From the NCBI GenBank assembly GCA_020631995.1, contig JACKGJ010000002.1, positions 90,773-154,772 on the forward strand: a stretch of 64,000 bases of DNA, given 5' to 3'. A program made the position numbers and the translations under genes. This DNA comes from Candidatus Nomurabacteria bacterium. Its GTDB lineage: Bacteria; Patescibacteriota; Minisyncoccia; Phycocordibacterales; UBA918. The notes under the pieces were generated by a model. That model was not told where the DNA came from and did not search any database. It saw nothing but the letters and a program-made list of their open reading frames with translations. Position 1 is the stretch's first letter; each line of letters starts with the position of its first letter. Positions 8,104-49,667 of the stretch are shown piece by piece.

Positions 8104-8195
8104 TCACATCAGGCCCGAAACTGAAGCAGTTCAGTTTCTACACAAGAAAACACTACCTCACGGAGAAGTAGTGTTTTCTTGTGTGCCTGATGTGA
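8104..8195 (-). other. Compact three-way-junction structure in the tRNA-Glu 3' trailer
   Basis: Stems 8104-8114/8185-8195 (11 bp), 8117-8125/8130-8138 (9 bp) and 8140-8156/8168-8184 (17 bp). Only 3 unpaired junction nucleotides. Confidence 0.3.
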
Positions 8196-8264
8196 CCCTA
8201 CAGGGAATCGAACCCTGATTTAAGCCTTGAGAAGGCTCCGTCCTAACCGTTAGACGATAGGGCC
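8193..8264 (-). tRNA. tRNA-Glu (anticodon CUC)
   Basis: GGCCCTATCGTCTAACGGTTAGGACGGAGCCTTCTCAAGGCTTAAATCAGGGTTCGATTCCCTGTAGGGTCA folds as a 72-nt cloverleaf with anticodon loop TTCTCAA. CCA is not encoded. Confidence 0.9.
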
Positions 8265-43078: not shown

Positions 43079-43314
43079 TATGACCTCCTAAGTCTTGTTT
43101 CGTCTGTTAGTGATACTACAATAAAAACTCAAAATGTCTAGCTCCGCGGGAAGGAATTTCTTTCATTACATGAACGGTACAGGTTGTCACGATTTTTCAT
43201 ACTTCAAAATCGCAGGCAACCTTTTCGAATCCTGACGGAAGTGACGCAGGTCACTTCCTCCCGCGTAGCATTAAAATCAAAGACCACACAAAGTGTGGCC
43301 TAAGATTTTATATG

Positions 43315-43607
43315 CTCCGCGGGCAGGATTCGAACCTGCGACCAATCGATTACACGAATCCCAATGTTTCCAAAGGGCGTGGACTATATCATCACCCACT
43401 AGGGGTGGAAGGCGCTTCCCCGGATTTCTCCGAGTACTCCCGTTAGGGATAGTCTCTGAACCTTTCCTTTGATTACTCTCCGGACTTGGCTGCTGATTGC
43501 CCACGGCTTTACGTTTGGGTTCCCAGCAGTTCACCTTCTTTTCGATCTGGATTACTCCAGAAAGCTGCCTTTGACAGTCGACCGCTCTACCGCTGAGCTA
43601 CCGCGGA
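43315..43607 (-). tRNA. tRNA-Asn (anticodon GUU) interrupted by a group I intron
   Basis: Exon 1 43574-43607 is TCCGCGGTAGCTCAGCGGTAGAGCGGTCGACTGT. Exon 2 43315-43352 is TAATCGATTGGTCGCAGGTTCGAATCCTGCCCGCGGAG. Joined, they give a 72-nt cloverleaf with loop CTGTTAA, a U1-A72 pair and G73, like bacterial tRNA-Asn. Confidence 0.85.
43353..43573 (-). ncRNA. Group I intron, 221 nt, no ORF
   Basis: The 5' exon ends in U and the intron ends in G. GCAG near the intron 5' end can pair with exon CUGU (P1 with a U.G pair). Conserved core strings GCAGCCAAGUCC and GUUCAGAGACUA with the complementary AUAGUC (P7), as in the Tetrahymena and Azoarcus introns. Confidence 0.85.
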
Positions 43608-43700
43608 ATATCCTTAATCTGCGGTATTAGATTAAGTACGCACATTCTACAGAAAAACTGAATTGTTTCAACTTTACCAATAGTGTATATTACGCTCTCT

Positions 43701-43771
43701 GGGCCCATAGTATAGTGGTAGAACGAATCCATGGCATGGATTAGGTCCGAGTTCGATTCTCGGTGGGTCCA
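43701..43771 (+). tRNA. tRNA-Ala (anticodon GGC)
   Basis: GGGCCCATAGTATAGTGGTAGAACGAATCCATGGCATGGATTAGGTCCGAGTTCGATTCTCGGTGGGTCCA has anticodon loop ATGGCAT and the G3:U70 identity pair. The D-stem is imperfect. Confidence 0.8.
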
Positions 43772-43806
43772 CTTAAATGAAGAATCGGTCATGCTAAAAT
43801 CCGATT

Positions 43807-44469
43807 ATGGAAGTCAAAATTGAGTCGAGTTGGAAGAAAGTTCTGAAAGAAGAATTTGAGAAAGAATACTTTAAGAATTTGTCTGCAAAAGTTCGCCAGG
43901 CTTATTTAACTGACTCTATCTTCCCTCCTCCGCCTTTAGTTTTTAATGCCTTTAACCTCTGTCCGTTCGATAAGGTGAAAGTTGTGATTATTGGGCAGGA
44001 TCCATATCATGGTCGTGGACAGGCGCATGGTCTGTGTTTTTCGGTGAATGATGGTGTGGCGGTACCACCGTCTCTAAAAAATATCTATAAAGAAATAAAG
44101 AGTGACCTTGGAATTGATGTGCCTGCCTCTGGAAATCTCGAACGTTGGGCCAAGCAGGGCGTACTACTTCTTAATGCTACCTTAACTGTGAAAGAAGCGA
44201 CGGCTGGCGCTCATCAAGGTTGGGGATGGGAGGAATTTACTGACGCTACCATCAAGAAAATTTCAGATGAGAAAGAGGGAGTGGTCTTTATGCTTTGGGG
44301 GCGATATGCACAGAACAAATCTGCACTTATCGATGAGTCAAAGCATTTAATATTAAAAGCACCGCACCCTTCCCCATTGTCTGCATATAGTGGTTGGTTT
44401 GGCTCCAAGCATTTCAGCCAAGCTAATACCTACCTAGAATCACACGGAAAAGAGCCGATTGATTGGTAA
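43807..44469 (+). CDS. ung: Uracil-DNA glycosylase (family 1)
   Basis: GQDPYH, PPSL and HPSPLS motifs. Confidence 0.9.
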   Translation: MEVKIESSWKKVLKEEFEKEYFKNLSAKVRQAYLTDSIFPPPPLVFNAFNLCPFDKVKVVIIGQDPYHGRGQAHGLCFSVNDGVAVPPSLKNIYKEIKSDLGIDVPASGNLERWAKQGVLLLNATLTVKEATAGAHQGWGWEEFTDATIKKISDEKEGVVFMLWGRYAQNKSALIDESKHLILKAPHPSPLSAYSGWFGSKHFSQANTYLESHGKEPIDW

Positions 44470-44705
44470 AAACGTCGCTCGTCCTATCTATCGCCGCAGG
44501 GACGAGGTGTTAGTCGAGCGAACCCGGCGTTTTTGCTAGCTAAGATGTCGGCCACCGCCGACGCAACTTATAAAAGTCGCATCCATCTCCGCGACAGGGT
44601 CGTCGGAGCTGACTTCGACATTGCTAGTAAAATTGACATTTAAAGATTTAATTGTTAAGTTTTGAGTTGGGTTTGTTATCTACAGAAGCAGAAAAGGAGA
44701 GCGTG

Positions 44706-45134
44706 ATGTCATTCATGCGAGCTGCCAGATCAACTTTGTCCCACTATATGGAGATGGGAAAAATCAGAAATACTGATTCTACAATCCGTCTCAAAACTTG
44801 GTTGGAAGAGTGTGGTTACTGTGTCTTTGATGTTAGTCAAAAAAGACAACGCTCTAACAGCGACATTGTGGCTGTTCTTCCCAACGACCCAACTTCATCA
44901 GTTTGGATCTATCAAAGAAAGAGCGATGACAAGTTTGTTGTACGCGCGTTCGTAAATCACTGTGCGTATAACAATTTATACGAAACTCTTTGTCGTTCAT
45001 CGTCTGAGATGGATATGAGTGACATCTCTTTGGTGCAGGGAGGAACCTTGAGTCTTCGTGAGGCCGAGAACGCTTGGTTGTCATGGCTTTCCGAAGCTTC
45101 AATGCAGAAAGCTCGAGCTCTCGAGCTTGTCTGA
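44706..45134 (+). CDS. Hypothetical protein, paralog A (possible PD-(D/E)xK-like fold)
   Basis: AAGGAGAG SD before ATG 44706. RLKTWLEECGYCVFDVSQKRQRSNSDIVAVLPNDPTSSVWIYQRKSDDKFVVRAF aligns with the next ORF. Confidence 0.5.
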   Translation: MSFMRAARSTLSHYMEMGKIRNTDSTIRLKTWLEECGYCVFDVSQKRQRSNSDIVAVLPNDPTSSVWIYQRKSDDKFVVRAFVNHCAYNNLYETLCRSSSEMDMSDISLVQGGTLSLREAENAWLSWLSEASMQKARALELV

Positions 45135-45141
45135 TCAACAA

Positions 45142-45174
45142 GGCACGGGGCAATATGCCCCGTGCCGTTTTTTT
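45142..45174 (+). terminator. Rho-independent terminator of paralog A
   Basis: GGCACGGGGCA / TGCCCCGTGCC 11-bp stem then TTTTTTT. Confidence 0.7.
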
Positions 45175-45241
45175 ATCTTAGGGATTAGTTGACTATAAGC
45201 ACATACTCATAGTTATATAGAGTCTGACAAGGAGTACTAAA

Positions 45242-45637
45242 ATGATCAGGACAAATAAGTCACGAGTTGTTCGGAAGTCTCCTGTGGCGGAAAAAATGGA
45301 GAGGTTGCGCCACCTGCTTGGAGAGAAAGGATACTGGGTGTTTAGAGTCAGTCCTAAACTTCGCAAAACGTCTCTCGACATAGTTGCGGTGGAAAAGGAC
45401 TATCCTCCCGTTTCTTACTGGCTTTATCCAACAAAAACCGGAAGAGTCGTTGTTAGGGCATGGAGGATACGTAAAGGAGCCTCGCAGGAGTTTTACAGCA
45501 ATATACGCATCCCAGATAGAGAGCGTAAAGCGCTCAAACTACTGCGTAGTTCGCCAATGCCCGAAACATCTTCTTGGCACAATTGGCTTACTAAGGACTC
45601 TAAGAAGGAGGCTGAACATCTCAAGGTTAGAATGTAA
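45242..45637 (+). CDS. Hypothetical protein, paralog B
   Basis: RLRHLLGEKGYWVFRVSPKLRKTSLDIVAVEKDYPPVSYWLYPTKTGRVVVRAW aligns with paralog A, and both share a W..WL C-terminal motif. Confidence 0.5.
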   Translation: MIRTNKSRVVRKSPVAEKMERLRHLLGEKGYWVFRVSPKLRKTSLDIVAVEKDYPPVSYWLYPTKTGRVVVRAWRIRKGASQEFYSNIRIPDRERKALKLLRSSPMPETSSWHNWLTKDSKKEAEHLKVRM

Positions 45638-45643
45638 TAAAAA

Positions 45644-45678
45644 GGCACGGGGCAGTAAACTGCCCCGTGCCAATTTTT
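45644..45678 (+). terminator. Rho-independent terminator of paralog B
   Basis: The same 11-bp stem GGCACGGGGCA / TGCCCCGTGCC with a different loop (GTAAAC), then TTTTT. Confidence 0.7.
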
Positions 45679-45709
45679 ATTTCACCTTGATTTTGATTAA
45701 TTTGAATAA

Positions 45710-46888
45710 TTAATCAAACAGGTTCCAAATCTTTTGGTCCTCTTCCCCATCTACCTTAAAGATAGCGATACCTTTGAGTCCGTACTGCTTAGCTAGATCA
45801 ACTTTGTCAGCAATAGCGTCAGCGTCTGAATACCATACTAATTCTACCGGTACTTCCATCTTGGTTAGGTTGGCGAAGAGGAGTGCTTTAGCAACGGCTT
45901 CAAATCCAACTCGAGTACCGTCTGGTACTGGAAGAACGTCGAGAATTTTGAAAGGTGAATTAGGATTAAAGAAAGTGTAGCTCTTCTCACCTGCTACATT
46001 CTCTCCAGGGGTAACATCATTATCCTCTGCCCATTCCTTAGCATCCGGCAAGTTTATTGCGCCATTGCCTTTATATTCCTTATACCATTCAGGAGCAACC
46101 GTCATAGTCCATTTGCGACCATAGGTTGGTACACCGAGCATAATCTGATCAGCAGAGAAATCTTTCAGAGCGAGCTCTAATACACTTTCCACCCAGTCGA
46201 CGTCAGCTACTGGTATATACGGCTCACCTTTCTTAGCGTCATTAAGAAGTAAGTCGGCACGCTGTTGGTCGTAGGTCATCAATTCAACAACGTCACAGTG
46301 TTTGGCCATTTCCTTATAGTCATTTGCATACTCAATGTTTTTAGGAACGTCTCTCCAGCGGTTTTCTGGTGGCATTCTAGCCTCTACAGTACAAGTGAGT
46401 AGCTTGCCATTGAGTCGCTCTTTTAATTCTTTTAGGAAAAGTGAGAAGTGATTCTTAGTGTCAGATAATTTCGACTCATAGTCGATATTTATTCCATCAA
46501 AGTCTCCGGCTTCTACGTAGCGCGCAATGATTTCGATATGGAGTCGACGCCACGTTGGGTTACTTAAAACTTTTTGTATTTCAGCACCATTATTCCACAG
46601 GATTGAAGGTACTACATCAACACCCTCATCTCTAGCTTTTTCAAACAGGTCTTGCCACTTATCTTCCGATAAATCAGCTTTATCTAATGGTATCCCTACT
46701 GAAGATACTTCAAAAGCAAAGGGATAAATAATATCGAGTTTATCAAGATTCTTTGAGGCACTGGCTGTTCCCATCGTGTCTTGCCAATAAGGAATCCAAC
46801 CACCTACTTCTATGTCAGAGGCAGCGGACACGCTACTAATCGGAGCCATAATTGTGATAAGGGCTAGTATTGCAAATATTTTCTTCAT
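45710..46888 (-). CDS. Secreted glycoside hydrolase family 18-like protein
   Basis: Signal peptide MKKIFAILALITIMAPISSVSA and the GH18 catalytic motif FDGINIDYES (DxxDxDxE). Confidence 0.75.
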   Translation of the reverse strand: MKKIFAILALITIMAPISSVSAASDIEVGGWIPYWQDTMGTASASKNLDKLDIIYPFAFEVSSVGIPLDKADLSEDKWQDLFEKARDEGVDVVPSILWNNGAEIQKVLSNPTWRRLHIEIIARYVEAGDFDGINIDYESKLSDTKNHFSLFLKELKERLNGKLLTCTVEARMPPENRWRDVPKNIEYANDYKEMAKHCDVVELMTYDQQRADLLLNDAKKGEPYIPVADVDWVESVLELALKDFSADQIMLGVPTYGRKWTMTVAPEWYKEYKGNGAINLPDAKEWAEDNDVTPGENVAGEKSYTFFNPNSPFKILDVLPVPDGTRVGFEAVAKALLFANLTKMEVPVELVWYSDADAIADKVDLAKQYGLKGIAIFKVDGEEDQKIWNLFD

Positions 46889-47037
46889 ATACCTTCAAGA
46901 CGAGTCACGAGCTCTTTTCTTTCATTGACCTCCTTTGAAATAAGCTTGCTGGTTGCAAGAAATGTCTTTTTGAACCGTCCTAGTAGATGGGTGGAGGTTG
47001 AGGTGACTTGCCTTCAATAGTACAAGGATTACAGAGA

Positions 47038-47430
47038 ATGAAAAAAGCTACATACGTTGCAGTAATGACAGCTATGCTTAGTCTGGCTCTCACTACTACA
47101 ACATATGCCAACCAGAACGCTCAAGTAGAGCAAATGGTCCGGGCGTATTTCAAAGACGCGCCTGTGATGGTGAAAATTGCAAAGTGCGAATCAGGATTCA
47201 AACACTTTGATCCGAATGGACCAAATGGCTTGAATACCAACCCAGACCCACGCTCTAGTGCCAGTGGTGTGTTTCAAATCCTCCTGAAAACCCACGGTCC
47301 AAAAGCGCGACGACTCGGTTTCGATATCACCACTGTAAAGGGTCAGCTCGGATACGCTAGGCACTTGTACAAGCTCGGTGGTACCAGGGACTGGAAAGAA
47401 TCCCGGCCATGCTGGAAACGAACAACATAA
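47038..47430 (+). CDS. Secreted transglycosylase-like (lysozyme-fold) protein
   Basis: Signal peptide MKKATYVAVMTAMLSLALTTTTYA. IAKCESGF and SASGVFQI resemble the lytic transglycosylase ES / GxxQ motifs. Confidence 0.55.
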   Translation: MKKATYVAVMTAMLSLALTTTTYANQNAQVEQMVRAYFKDAPVMVKIAKCESGFKHFDPNGPNGLNTNPDPRSSASGVFQILLKTHGPKARRLGFDITTVKGQLGYARHLYKLGGTRDWKESRPCWKRTT

Positions 47431-47445
47431 TGTTCTTTGAACTCG

Positions 47446-47475
47446 ACAGGGCGTCTTTGACGCCCTGTTTTTCTT
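47446..47475 (+). terminator. Rho-independent terminator
   Basis: ACAGGGCGTC / GACGCCCTGT 10-bp stem then TTTTTC. Confidence 0.7.
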
Positions 47476-47576
47476 TTCCTGATATACTGATCATAATATG
47501 CTTCGCACCATACTCCCTTGGATTTTAGGTTTCATTCTCCTCCTGATAATTAACGCCTACATTTCTAGTTAATCCT

Positions 47577-48389
47577 ATGCCTAAATACATTGTTATCGAA
47601 AAGCGTGTCGGAGAAACGCCTCTTCAGGCGGTTACTGCTTATAAACAAGCGAATCCAGAGTTTCAAAATCTACCAATGTCATATGCCGGTAGACTAGACC
47701 CGATGGCTAGTGGAAAACTACTAGTGTTAGTCGGTGAGGAGTGCAAGAAGCAGGAAGAATATCACGCACTTGATAAAGAGTATGAATTTGAAGTTTTGCT
47801 CGGTAGTTCTTCTGACACTGGTGACGTACTCGGACTCATTGACTGGAAGGAGACAACAACATTTTCAGAACAGCAACTTAAAAAAACTGCTAATAGTTTA
47901 AATGGTCCACTTTCACTTCCCTATCCCAATTTTTCATCACGTACAGTTAAGGGTAAGCCTCTACATACTTGGACACTGGAGGATCGTCTTGATGAAATAG
48001 AGATTCCTAGTGCTGATACTTTTATATACAAACTTAATCTAGTTGATATGCGGGAAGAGTTAGTTGAGACTGTCTATCAGGACGCCTTACGCCGAATTGA
48101 ATCTATACCACCGGTGACTGAGGATAGTAAGGCTTTGGGACGTGATTTCAGGCGCAGTGAAGTCCGGGTGGCTTGGGCAGTGTGGCTTGAGCATCATAAG
48201 GGCCAGAAGGTGCAGATTGCACGTTTCCGATGCATAGCTACCAGTGGGACCTATATGCGGTCTCTAGCAGGCGAAATAGGCCGCTTATTAGGTACTACCG
48301 GACTAGCCTACTCAATACATAGAAGCAAAATTGGGGTTTATAAAACCCTGCCCTTTAAGCTTGGATATTGGCGGAAACTTTTCGCTTAA
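47577..48389 (+). CDS. truB: tRNA pseudouridine synthase, TruB-like
   Basis: AGRLDPMASGKLLVLVG catalytic Asp motif. 270 aa, no PUA domain evident. Confidence 0.7.
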   Translation: MPKYIVIEKRVGETPLQAVTAYKQANPEFQNLPMSYAGRLDPMASGKLLVLVGEECKKQEEYHALDKEYEFEVLLGSSSDTGDVLGLIDWKETTTFSEQQLKKTANSLNGPLSLPYPNFSSRTVKGKPLHTWTLEDRLDEIEIPSADTFIYKLNLVDMREELVETVYQDALRRIESIPPVTEDSKALGRDFRRSEVRVAWAVWLEHHKGQKVQIARFRCIATSGTYMRSLAGEIGRLLGTTGLAYSIHRSKIGVYKTLPFKLGYWRKLFA

Positions 48390-48434
48390 TGGCAGTTGAC
48401 TCAAAGAGGGTTTTCTGGTATCTTTCTAGCCACT

Positions 48435-48614
48435 ATGTCACAAGACAGACTAATAAAACTTGTATCGAAGGGCGACGCCAAAAATGGTGTTTCTACTGAC
48501 GTGTATTACACTCGATACAACAATAAGACTAAGAAGGACCCAAGCAAGAAGCTGGCGCTGAAGAAGTATAATAAGAAGCTTCGCAAACACGTAGTTTACA
48601 CTCAGAAGAAATAA
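48435..48614 (+). CDS. rpmG: 50S ribosomal protein L33
   Basis: From the internal ATG: MSQDRLIKLVSKGDAKNGVSTDVYYTRYNNKTKKDPSKKLALKKYNKKLRKHVVYTQKK follows the bL33 pattern (IKLVS...Y.T.KN......KL.LKKY.P.LRKHV.Y.E.K). Confidence 0.8.
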   Translation: MSQDRLIKLVSKGDAKNGVSTDVYYTRYNNKTKKDPSKKLALKKYNKKLRKHVVYTQKK

Positions 48615-48659
48615 AAAAACCGTCAATTTGGCGGTTTTTTTGTTTATTATCCTCTGGAA

Positions 48660-49667
48660 CTAAAGTTGTCCCTCGTCTGCCTTGCAGTTTCTTTCCAACA
48701 CTTCAAGTAGCACTTTTTGTGCAGTGGATACATTCTCTTCCTTTCCTTTCCAAGCTTCCTGTACTGGTTGCTCGATACCGCGTGAGAATGAGAAGGCCAG
48801 TTGCCATGGCAAACCACCGTTTTCTTTCTCTAGTTTTCCAATAGCATTAAAGTTGCTAGTTACCTGCTCAGGAGTTTGCCCACCAGAGAGAAATACTATT
48901 CCGGGCACTTCACTTGGAACGGCGCCTTCTAAGACACGAAGTGTAGCTTCCGCCACTTCTTCTGGGCTACTTTGCTTCTCATTCTTGTTACCAGCTAGTA
49001 CCATACTAGTCTTCAAAATAACTGCCTTTAAATCAACTCGGTACTGTATTAATACTGCAAAGAGGGTCCGCAGTACCAATGAAGTTACTTCTTCCGCTTT
49101 AGCTAAATTATGTGTTCCTGCATAGATAACTTCTGGTTCAACTATCGGAACTATTCCCGCTTCTTGGCAGAGGCGAGCGTAACGTGCCAGTAGCAGACAG
49201 TTAAACTTAATGCTCTCAATGGTTGGCAAATTTTCTCCAATATTAACCACCGCTCGCCACTTAGCAGCCCGTGCACCCATTTTGAAATATTCTTCTAACC
49301 TTTCCTTTAGTCCGTCTAACCCTTCAGTCACAACTTCTCCATCGAAACCCTCAAAAGGTTTGGTGCTTTTATCGACTTTGATTATTGGAATAATTCCTTT
49401 GGCAATTAAGTAGTCAACAAAAGCCGTTCCGTCATCAGTTTGGTTACGAATGGTAGCGTCATAAAGAATGATACCAGTCACATACTTCTCGATGCCTGGT
49501 GCGGTGAAGAGTAGTTGGCGATATTTACGACGAGTGTCTGCGTCCGGAGTGGCACCGACAGCGGATAGTTGTTTATCCATCGTCGTGACACTTTGGTCGG
49601 CTGCTAATATTCCCTTCCCGGGCGACATTAGAAGTGCTGCGGTCTTATAGAGTTCTTCTGATAGCAT
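48660..49667 (-). CDS. fba: Fructose-bisphosphate aldolase, class I
   Basis: GKGILAADQSVTTMDKQL and the overall class I TIM-barrel pattern. 335 aa. Confidence 0.85.
   Translation of the reverse strand: MLSEELYKTAALLMSPGKGILAADQSVTTMDKQLSAVGATPDADTRRKYRQLLFTAPGIEKYVTGIILYDATIRNQTDDGTAFVDYLIAKGIIPIIKVDKSTKPFEGFDGEVVTEGLDGLKERLEEYFKMGARAAKWRAVVNIGENLPTIESIKFNCLLLARYARLCQEAGIVPIVEPEVIYAGTHNLAKAEEVTSLVLRTLFAVLIQYRVDLKAVILKTSMVLAGNKNEKQSSPEEVAEATLRVLEGAVPSEVPGIVFLSGGQTPEQVTSNFNAIGKLEKENGGLPWQLAFSFSRGIEQPVQEAWKGKEENVSTAQKVLLEVLERNCKADEGQL

What the first reader, a model, noticed from the sequence alone, without database searches (positions are those of the whole stretch)
43315..43607. ORF-less group I intron splitting the anticodon of tRNA-Asn(GUU) between positions 35 and 36
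The two exons (43574-43607 and 43315-43352, minus strand) join unambiguously as CTGT|TAA. This gives the anticodon loop CUGUUAA of a canonical 72-nt tRNA-Asn.

The 221-nt insert obeys group I rules: a U precedes the 5' splice site and the intron ends in G. GCAG, 5 nt into the intron, can pair with exon CUGU to form P1 with a U.G pair.

The insert also contains the conserved core strings GCAGCCAAGUCC and GUUCAGAGACUA, with a matching AUAGUC (P7) and a GUAA-capped P2 hairpin.

The bacterial tRNA group I introns I know of are in tRNA-Leu(UAA), tRNA-fMet, tRNA-Arg(CCU) and tRNA-Ile(CAU). A tRNA-Asn host and this insertion point would be unusual.

The ORF-track entries 43277-43534 and 43598-43792 are artefacts of this RNA locus.
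Basis: partly seen in the sequence, partly recalled or inferred. Interest (0 to 1): 0.7.

Follow-up and report, generated by a model that had tools for sequence, protein, structure and literature searches.

The report
Self-splicing intron in tRNA-Asn gene
The tRNA-Asn gene of this candidate-phylum (Patescibacteria) bacterium is interrupted in its anticodon by a small self-splicing group I intron; this is real and looks intact, but it is an ordinary example of a class described in 2020 and shown to splice in vitro in 2026.

Summary
Window 43353-43573 (minus strand) is a 221-nt, ORF-less group I intron (Rfam RF00028, 82.8 bits against a cut-off of 50, E=1.5e-19). Its flanks join into a 72-nt cloverleaf tRNA-Asn(GUU), split between positions 35 and 36.

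The join is not "unambiguous". A register two bases upstream also obeys the U/G rule, and ARAGORN calls it tRNA-Thr(UGU). Four results favour Asn:
- the U35.G wobble in P1;
- a covarying two-pair P9.0 helix just before the terminal G (19/19 paired, against 4/19 and 1/19 in the Thr register);
- a terminal G in 24/24 homologues, against 12/24 for the Thr register;
- near-identical junctions in a homologue whose 35/36 splicing was sequenced.

A full P1-P9 model pairs in 98% of cells across 19 homologues, and 36 of 62 pairs show compensatory changes. Two extra hairpins (P7.1/P7.2) place the intron in subgroup IA, not IC3.

The novelty claim fails. The window comes from a "Candidatus Nomurabacteria" MAG, in the phylum where this tRNA-Asn 35/36 class is common (15 tRNA-Asn genes among 95 complete genomes; Nakagawa 2026; "Asn.4Ug" in Williams 2020). 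A capped genome scan found 24 more examples. This is a new member of a known kind, of low interest.

The parts
43644..43671 (-). Sigma-70-like promoter TTGAAA-16 nt-TAGAAT, about 35 nt upstream of tRNA position 1
   Evidence: 10 of 12 consensus matches. This is a consensus match only; function is inferred.
43574..43607 (-). 5' exon: tRNA-Asn positions 1-35 (UCCGCGG acceptor strand, D arm, anticodon stem strand GUCGA, then C32 U33 G34 U35)
   Evidence: It ends in U35, which forms the U.G wobble of P1.
43353..43573 (-). Group I intron, 221 nt, with no ORF of its own (intron nt i = window 43574 - i)
   Evidence: RF00028 82.8 bits, E=1.5e-19; structure supported by covariation; the overlapping ORF has no Pfam match.
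43565..43577 (-). P1 hairpin CUGU|C-AAA-GGCAG. Exon C32-U35 pairs with guide G6-G9 (U35.G6 wobble at the 5' splice site), extended by intron C1-G5.
   Evidence: All four pairs are present in 19/19 sequences, but that invariance is partly forced by the search pattern.
43546..43561 (-). P2 hairpin UCUGGA-GUAA-UCCAGA
   Evidence: helix 3: 98.2% of cells paired; 5 of 6 pairs show compensatory change.
43532..43538 (-). P3 5' strand GAAGGUG
   Evidence: 7 standard pairs in the window. helix 4: 96.2% paired in the family, with covariation.
43408..43414 (-). P3 3' strand CGCCUUC
43491..43528 (-). P4-P5 domain (UGCUGG ... UCAGCA enclosing P5/P5a, with a GAA J4/5)
   Evidence: alignment, helices 5-7.
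43460..43490 (-). P6/P6a (GC...GU base, then a short 3-bp UCC/GGA stem)
   Evidence: helices 8-9 (100% and 95.5% paired). P6a is shorter here than in most relatives.
43450..43456 (-). P7 5' strand G-(A bulge)-GACUA. By analogy with solved group I introns, the G120-C192 pair after the bulged A is the guanosine-binding site.
   Evidence: helix 10: six pairs invariant in 19/19. The G-site assignment rests on established group I knowledge, not on a test here.
43381..43386 (-). P7 3' strand UAGUCC (pseudoknot partner of 43450-43456)
43438..43449 (-). P7.1 hairpin UCCC-UAAC-GGGA
   Evidence: 15 of 15 two-hairpin-type relatives fold as hairpin-GUA-hairpin with different stem sequences (UCCC/GGGA, GAGC/GCUC, UCUU/AAGA, UUCC/GGAA).
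43419..43434 (-). P7.2 hairpin CUCGGA-GAAA-UCCGGG
   Evidence: stem sequences differ among relatives while pairing is kept.
43394..43406 (-). P8 hairpin ACCC-CUAGU-GGGU
   Evidence: helix 11: 98.9% paired; 3 pairs with compensatory change.
43379..43380 (-). P9.0 5' strand (A194 C195), directly after P7
   Evidence: pairs with U220 and G219. 19/19 paired in the family (AU13/GC5/GU1 and AU10/CG8/UG1).
43360..43377 (-). P9 hairpin with a GAAA loop. The window copy has two internal U.U mismatches.
   Evidence: helix 13: 97.7% paired; 5 pairs with compensatory change; similar mismatches occur in L047 and L053.
43353..43355 (-). P9.0 3' strand (G219 U220) followed by the terminal guanosine, omegaG (G221 = 43353)
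   Evidence: G is at this position in 24/24 homologues when the exon start is placed only by distance to the T arm.
43315..43352 (-). 3' exon: tRNA-Asn positions 36-73 (U36 A37 A38, anticodon stem strand UCGAU, variable loop, T arm, acceptor strand CCGCGGA, discriminator G). No CCA is encoded.
43271..43301 (-). Intrinsic-terminator-like hairpin (9 pairs) plus T-rich tail, 13 nt after the tRNA 3' end

Best explanation
This is the tRNA-Asn(GUU) gene of a Patescibacteria ('Candidatus Nomurabacteria') bacterium, and probably the only one. A 221-nt self-splicing group I intron of subgroup IA interrupts it between anticodon positions 35 and 36. The gene appears to be transcribed from its own promoter and to end at its own terminator. 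In the precursor, exon bases C32-U35 pair with the intron's guide sequence GCAG to form P1, which places the U35.G wobble at the 5' splice site. A free guanosine bound in P7 attacks after U35. The two-pair P9.0 helix then brings the terminal G221 into the same site. The freed U35 3'-OH attacks after G221, joining the exons to restore the loop CUGUUAA and releasing the intron. No convincing P10 can form, so the tRNA's own anticodon stem probably holds the exons together, as shown for the Anabaena tRNA-Leu intron. RNase P, 3' trimming and CCA addition (CCA is not encoded) would complete maturation. What is shown here: the sequence, the covariance-model match, the covariation-supported structure and the homology to an experimentally spliced intron. 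What is inferred: the catalytic steps at this locus, promoter use, the role of the anticodon stem and single-copy status.
For: - Group I match: RF00028 at 82.8 bits, E=1.5e-19, full length. This lies within the 65.9-91.1 bit range of homologues.
- Spliced exons: a canonical cloverleaf that ARAGORN calls Asn(GTT), with U1-A72 and discriminator G73.
- Structure: an explicit anticodon stem + P1-P9 + P9.0 model (P7 written as a pseudoknot) pairs in 98.0% of cells over 19 homologues. Slid controls give 30-42%. 36 of 62 pairs show changes on both sides, and 0 of 500 shuffles reach any observed measure. RNAalifold recovers the same helices independently.
- Splice register: P9.0 pairs in 19/19 for Asn, against 4/19 and 1/19 for Thr. 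The terminal G is present in 24/24 homologues, against 12/24 for the Thr-register G, with the exon start placed only by the T arm.
- Experimental homologue: the in-vitro-spliced, sequence-verified Patescibacteria tRNA-Asn intron (GCA_016700035.1) has near-identical junctions (CUGU|UAAAGGCAG..., AC after P7'...GUG|UAA). Its tRNA is 62/72 identical to the window's.
- P7.1/P7.2: supported in 15 of 15 relatives.
- Integrity: the window keeps 82 of 95 near-invariant family columns. The other 13 are an alignment offset or compensated pairs.
- Host: 'Candidatus Nomurabacteria', in a phylum where 15 tRNA-Asn genes among 95 complete genomes carry this intron.
- Expression signals: promoter and terminator flank the gene.
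Against: - There are no RNA data or splicing assay for this locus.
- The invariance of P1 and of the CUGU/GCAGCUU junction among my 24 homologues is partly forced by the search pattern.
- P6a is only 3 bp, and P9 has two U.U mismatches in this copy, although similar mismatches occur in relatives.
- I could not scan the rest of the genome for a second tRNA-Asn gene.
- Similarity of the tRNA body to E. coli tRNAs is uninformative; the best hit is tRNA-Lys.
- ARAGORN prefers the Thr register.
Confidence: 0.93

Rival explanations
1. The gene is tRNA-Thr(UGU) with the same 221-nt intron lying two bases upstream, between positions 33 and 34 (5' exon ends at U33 = 43576, intron ends at G = 43355).
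For: This register also has U before the 5' splice site and G at the intron end, and it gives a 7-nt loop CUUGUAA. ARAGORN with introns allowed makes this call.
Against: - In P1, U33 pairs with A8 as a Watson-Crick pair; the U.G wobble is at U35.
- The would-be omegaG (G219) is engaged in the covarying P9.0. A P9.0 in this register pairs in only 4/19 and 1/19 sequences.
- G at that position is present in only 12/24 homologues, against 24/24 for the Asn register.
- The body has U1-A72 and G73 and is 62/72 identical to a verified tRNA-Asn.
- Nakagawa 2026 documents this exact ARAGORN/tFind miscall and disproved it by sequencing spliced product from an intron with the same ...GUG|UAA end.
Confidence: 0.03
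2. The intron has lost activity and this copy is a pseudogene. Asn decoding is served by an intron-less tRNA-Asn gene elsewhere in the genome.
For: - P6a is short (3 bp) and P9 has two U.U mismatches in this copy.
- No RNA evidence is available.
- The rest of the genome could not be scanned.
Against: - All core helices form with standard pairs.
- 82 of 95 near-invariant columns are kept, and the rest are compensated pairs or an alignment offset.
- The Rfam score is typical of the family.
- An intact promoter, terminator and tRNA cloverleaf are present.
- In Patescibacteria complete genomes tRNA-Asn is single-copy, and in the intron-bearing genomes visible in the Table S2 excerpt (for example GCA_016700035.1) the standard tools report zero tRNA-Asn genes, so no intron-less copy was found there. 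[quoted passage not shown]
Confidence: 0.04

Closest known systems
Group I introns at position 35/36 of tRNA-Asn(GUU) in Patescibacteria (Nakagawa et al., mSystems 2026, PMC13011429; 'Asn.4Ug' of Williams 2020, bioRxiv 10.1101/2020.01.27.920355)
   Same: - Same host tRNA, insertion site and phylum.
- Same P1 (CUGU:GCAG with a U.G wobble).
- Same AC/GU P9.0 and ...GUG|UAA 3' junction as the in-vitro-validated GCA_016700035.1 intron.
- Same miscall as Thr(UGU) by ARAGORN.
- No homing endonuclease, as in most members.
- The same P7.1 (UCCC...GGGA-GUAC) as published Paceibacteria GCA_026016225.1.
   Different: Only about 54-64% intron identity to the eight published examples I compared. This assembly, GCA_020632025.1, was not found in the part of that paper's supplement held here (the file was cut when stored). 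At 221 nt it is at the short end of the published 184-894 nt range.
tRNA-Asn 35/36 group I introns of Nitrospirota and Bipolaricaulota (Table S5 of PMC13011429, classed IA1)
   Same: Same site, same GCAGCUU guide followed by P2, the same P3-P9 core and P9.0, and about 60-70% identity.
   Different: Between P7 and P3' they have a single composite hairpin instead of the window's two separate hairpins with a GUA linker.
Classical IC3 tRNA introns: tRNA-Leu(UAA) of cyanobacteria and plastids, tRNA-Ile(CAU) of Azoarcus, tRNA-Arg(CCU), tRNA-fMet
   Same: They are small, mostly ORF-less, self-splicing group I introns in the anticodon loop. They share core strings (GCC AAG..., AGAGACUA, AUAGUC). Exon alignment probably relies on the anticodon stem (from my knowledge of the Anabaena work, Zaug et al. 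1993).
   Different: They use different insertion sites (34/35, 36/37, 33/34) and different host tRNAs. IC3 introns lack the P7.1/P7.2 insertion that this intron has; the Rfam alignment shows it as a 33-nt insert after AGACUA.

Membership tests
Group I intron (Rfam RF00028) | Covariance-model match above the curated gathering score | tested here: met
   82.8 bits against 50, E=1.5e-19, model positions 1-253 of 253.
Group I intron (Rfam RF00028) | Conserved core helices P3-P9, including the P3/P7 pseudoknot | tested here: met
   All helices form with standard pairs in the window. Across 19 homologues 98.0% of cells are paired, and 36 of 62 pairs show compensatory change.
Group I intron (Rfam RF00028) | [quoted passage not shown] | tested here: met
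   U35.G6 in P1 and G221 at the 3' end. OmegaG is present in 24/24 homologues. P9.0 next to omegaG covaries.
Group I intron (Rfam RF00028) | Guanosine-dependent self-splicing | not testable with these tools
   Shown in vitro for the homologue GCA_016700035.1. Not assayed for this locus.
tRNA-Asn(GUU) 35/36 intron class (Asn.4Ug) | Host exons form a tRNA with anticodon GUU and Asn-type body | tested here: met
   ARAGORN calls Asn(GTT) on the spliced sequence. The body has U1-A72 and G73 and is 62/72 identical to the verified Patescibacteria tRNA-Asn. The E. coli comparison was uninformative.
tRNA-Asn(GUU) 35/36 intron class (Asn.4Ug) | Insertion between positions 35 and 36, not 33/34 | tested here: met
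   Supported by the P1 wobble position, P9.0 covariation and omegaG conservation, and by the experimentally verified homologue with the same junctions.
Subgroup IA | Extra P7.1/P7.2 helices between P7 and P3' | tested here: met
   There are two hairpins at intron nt 125-136 and 140-155. 15 of 15 relatives fold the same way with different stem sequences. Published relatives were classed IA1 by subgroup covariance models.
Subgroup IA | Assignment by subgroup-specific covariance models (GISSD-type) | not tested
   Those models are not available here. The assignment rests on structure and on homology to published IA1 introns.
   About 35 nt forming two covariation-supported hairpins lie between P7 and P3'.
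Mobile group I intron with homing endonuclease | An intron-encoded endonuclease ORF | tested here: not met
   The intron is 221 nt. The only overlapping ORF (43277-43534) runs out into the exon and has no Pfam match.

The most novel reading that the evidence does not exclude
In a reduced-genome Patescibacteria cell, the only tRNA-Asn gene can mature only through a guanosine-dependent ribozyme step. On this reading the intron acts as an RNA-level gate that couples the supply of Asn-decoding tRNA to the guanosine nucleotide or Mg2+ state, rather than being a neutral passenger. Nakagawa et al. 2026 raise this regulatory idea speculatively. Nothing here tests it, and nothing excludes it.
Probability: 0.07. 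Interest if true: 0.55.

Novelty: new member of a known kind. Interest (0 to 1): 0.15.

Why it matters
The practical value is for annotation. Default tRNA finders miss this gene (ARAGORN without introns) or mislabel it as tRNA-Thr(UGU). The genome would then appear to lack tRNA-Asn, and completeness or decoding inferences would be wrong. The covarying P9.0 helix gives a simple sequence-based rule for choosing between the Asn 35/36 and Thr 33/34 registers, and this could be built into annotation pipelines. Biologically the locus adds one more example to a class already described and experimentally validated in this phylum, so it opens no new question.

Tried and rejected
- The genome contigs pattern AGAGCNNNNGRCTGTN{3,33}GCAGCTT was too permissive. 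I filtered it to 24 true loci. Phylum counts from it are therefore only a lower bound and a biased sample.\n- My first structure, mapped from the window row onto the MAFFT columns, gave poor P3/P4 numbers (44% and 66% paired). The cause was a one-column offset of the window row, not a lack of pairing. It was fixed by using the majority register.\n- A first 'relaxed' regex to test omegaG without forcing G matched only 4 loci. I replaced it with placement by distance to the T arm.\n- blastn of the Thr-register tRNA against E. coli genomes, meant to read the isotype from the body, hit tRNA-Lys best. I rejected it as uninformative.\n- P10: the 3' exon UAA can form at most one wobble pair (U36.G5) with the bases 5' of the guide. 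I rejected P10 as a real helix and infer that the anticodon stem aligns the exons.\n- A possible pairing of the 3' tail UUCG with J2/3 CGAA in the window has no family support and was dropped.\n- I did not build a custom covariance model, because the RNAalifold and counted structures were already decisive.

Full report
**1. What is at the coordinates**

On the minus strand, 43607-43574 reads UCCGCGGUAGCUCAGCGGUAGAGCGGUCGACUGU and 43352-43315 reads UAAUCGAUUGGUCGCAGGUUCGAAUCCUGCCCGCGGAG. A 221-nt insert lies between them.

Default ARAGORN does not see the gene. It reports only tRNA-Glu(CUC) at 8192-8264 and tRNA-Ala(GGC) at 43701-43772.

Rfam's group I model RF00028 matches 43360-43590(-) over its whole length at 82.8 bits, against a gathering score of 50, with E=1.5e-19. 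Joining the exons gives a 72-nt cloverleaf with U1-A72 and discriminator G73, and ARAGORN calls it tRNA-Asn(GTT). CCA is not encoded.

A sigma-70-like promoter (TTGAAA-16-TAGAAT, 43671-43644) lies upstream and an intrinsic-terminator hairpin (43301-43281, with a T-rich tail) lies downstream. The two ORFs that overlap the locus have no Pfam match.

**2.

Moving both boundaries two bases upstream also leaves U before the 5' splice site and G at the intron end.

Four lines of evidence favour Asn:
- **P1 wobble.** In P1 (CUGU|C-AAA-GGCAG) the U.G wobble that marks a group I 5' splice site is at U35. U33 pairs with A in a Watson-Crick pair.
- **P9.0 helix.** RNAalifold found, without prompting, a two-pair helix between the two bases just after P7' and the two bases just before the terminal G. 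In the window these pairs are A194-U220 and C195-G219. Among 19 homologues both pairs form in 19/19, with covariation (AU 13/GC 5/GU 1 and AU 10/CG 8/UG 1). The equivalent pairs in the Thr register form in only 4/19 and 1/19. This is the P9.0 element that presents omegaG, so omegaG is G221 (window 43353).
- **OmegaG conservation.** When the 3' exon start is placed only by its distance to the T arm, 24/24 homologues have G as the last intron base and UAA at positions 36-38. The Thr-register G is present in only 12/24.
- **Experimental homologue.** Nakagawa et al. 2026 showed self-splicing in vitro for the Patescibacteria intron GCA_016700035.1 and sequenced the ligated exons. Its junctions are CUGU|UAAAGGCAG..., AC after P7' and ...GUG|UAA, essentially those of the window (CUGU|CAAAGGCAG..., AC...GUG|UAA). 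Its tRNA is 62/72 identical to the window's. ARAGORN and tFind miscalled that gene as Thr(UGU) in the same way.

**3. Structure and integrity**

I drew an explicit model for the window's intron: anticodon stem, P1, P2, P3, P4, P5, P6, P7 (as a pseudoknot), P7.1, P7.2, P8, P9.0 and P9. Every helix forms with standard pairs except two U.U mismatches inside P9.

In the majority register, on an alignment of 19 pre-tRNA-Asn sequences, 98.0% of cells are standard pairs, against 30-42% when partners are slid by 1-3 columns. 36 of 62 pairs show changes on both sides, and none of 500 shuffles reaches any observed measure. P1 and P7 are invariant. For P1 this is partly forced by my search pattern.

The stretch between P7 and P3' folds as hairpin-GUA-hairpin in 15 of 15 relatives of this type, with different stem sequences. 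This is the P7.1/P7.2 pair that marks subgroup IA. Published relatives were classed IA1.

The window's copy agrees with 82 of 95 near-invariant family columns. The 13 exceptions are a one-column MAFFT offset in P3/J3-4/P4 or compensated pairs. Its Rfam score lies within the 65.9-91.1 bit range of homologues. I see no sign of decay.

**4. Source and context**

A window protein maps exactly to NCBI assembly GCA_020632025.1, contig JACKGK010000001.1. NCBI names the proteins 'Candidatus Nomurabacteria bacterium', and cluster mates are Kaiserbacteria. The host is therefore a Patescibacteria (CPR) organism. Neighbouring genes are ordinary chromosomal ones: L,D-transpeptidase, uracil-DNA glycosylase, GH18, TruB and class I aldolase.

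**5. Comparison with what is known**

- Williams 2020 (bioRxiv 10.1101/2020.01.27.920355) expanded bacterial tRNA group I introns from 4 to 21 types. Nakagawa et al. cite its 'Asn.4Ug' type and its occasional mislabelling as 'Thr.2Ug'.
- Nakagawa et al. 2026 (PMC13011429) found 15 tRNA-Asn genes with a 35/36 intron among 95 complete Patescibacteria genomes.
- They proved precise self-splicing in vitro, with an omegaG-to-C control.
- They found 28 introns at 35/36 among 4,934 complete bacterial genomes, 19 of them in Patescibacteria.
- They classed 25 of those 28 as subgroup IA.

My single, row-capped scan of GTDB species genomes recovered 24 further split tRNA-Asn genes. Their MAG labels include Patescibacteria, Acidobacteriota, Nitrospirota, Elusimicrobia, Planctomycetia, Deltaproteobacteria, Gammaproteobacteria and Clostridia. 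The closest to the window is a Parcubacteria-group locus, L034.

**6. Mechanism**

The most likely course is as follows. The gene is transcribed from its own promoter. The intron folds. Exogenous guanosine bound in P7 attacks after U35 at the U.G wobble. P9.0 docks omegaG221 into the same site. U35 then attacks after G221, which restores CUGUUAA. End processing and CCA addition finish the tRNA.

No credible P10 exists. The anticodon stem pairs in 100% of cells, with four covarying pairs, and probably aligns the exons as in Anabaena pre-tRNA-Leu; that precedent is from my own knowledge. The structure and the homology are shown here. Catalysis at this locus, promoter use and single-copy status are inferred.

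**7. Verdict**

This is a real, intact, correctly interpreted feature. It is a routine new member of a class that is already described and experimentally validated, in the phylum where that class is common. Its value is for annotation: a missed or mislabelled tRNA-Asn gene. Interest is low.

Noticed in passing
L105:740-1063 (CAYTFL010000170.1): A 1,963-bp contig binned as 'Candidatus Woesearchaeota archaeon' carries a bacterial-type tRNA-Asn with the same group I intron (RF00028, 91.1 bits). It is probably a mis-binned CPR contig rather than an archaeal group I intron. Williams 2020 raised the same suspicion about a 'Pacearchaeota' case.
   Followed up: partly
L023:4816-5125, L053:4450-4741 versus L008, L066 and others, versus the window: At least three different intron core architectures occupy the identical 35/36 site of tRNA-Asn with the same GCAGCUU guide. 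They are a two-hairpin P7.1/P7.2 type (the window), a single composite-hairpin type (Nitrospirota-like), and a 'GGGAUAACGG...CGUAGAGACUAGAUACC' type with neither.
   Followed up: partly
window 43311-43315 (-): The tRNA-Asn gene does not encode CCA (it reads ...GGAG|CAUA), whereas most homologues read GGAGCC(A). Maturation here must rely on a CCA-adding enzyme.
   Followed up: no
window 43701-43772 (+): tRNA-Ala(GGC), with the G3:U70 pair, is transcribed divergently. It starts 93 nt from the tRNA-Asn 5' end, and the tRNA-Asn promoter sits in the short spacer. ORF 43598-43792 is the antisense of this tRNA.
   Followed up: partly
Published Table S3 of PMC13011429, entry GCA_016700375.1: The listed intron ends in ...aagca rather than in G, unlike every other tRNA-Asn 35/36 intron I examined. 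This may be a boundary error in that table or an atypical 3' splice site.
   Followed up: no
window 43807-49667 (proteins at 43807-44469, 47577-48389, 48660-49667): Each of three window proteins carries two NCBI protein accessions (MCB98189xx and MCB98191xx) and is recorded on two contigs, the longest 219,983 bp. The one I retrieved is 135,915 bp. The same region therefore seems to be deposited twice.
   Followed up: no
L096:853-1209 and L023:4816-5125: Two MAGs labelled Gammaproteobacteria carry tRNA-Asn introns. L096 is among the closest to the Patescibacteria window (79% by my global measure). This could reflect mis-binning or horizontal transfer.
   Followed up: no
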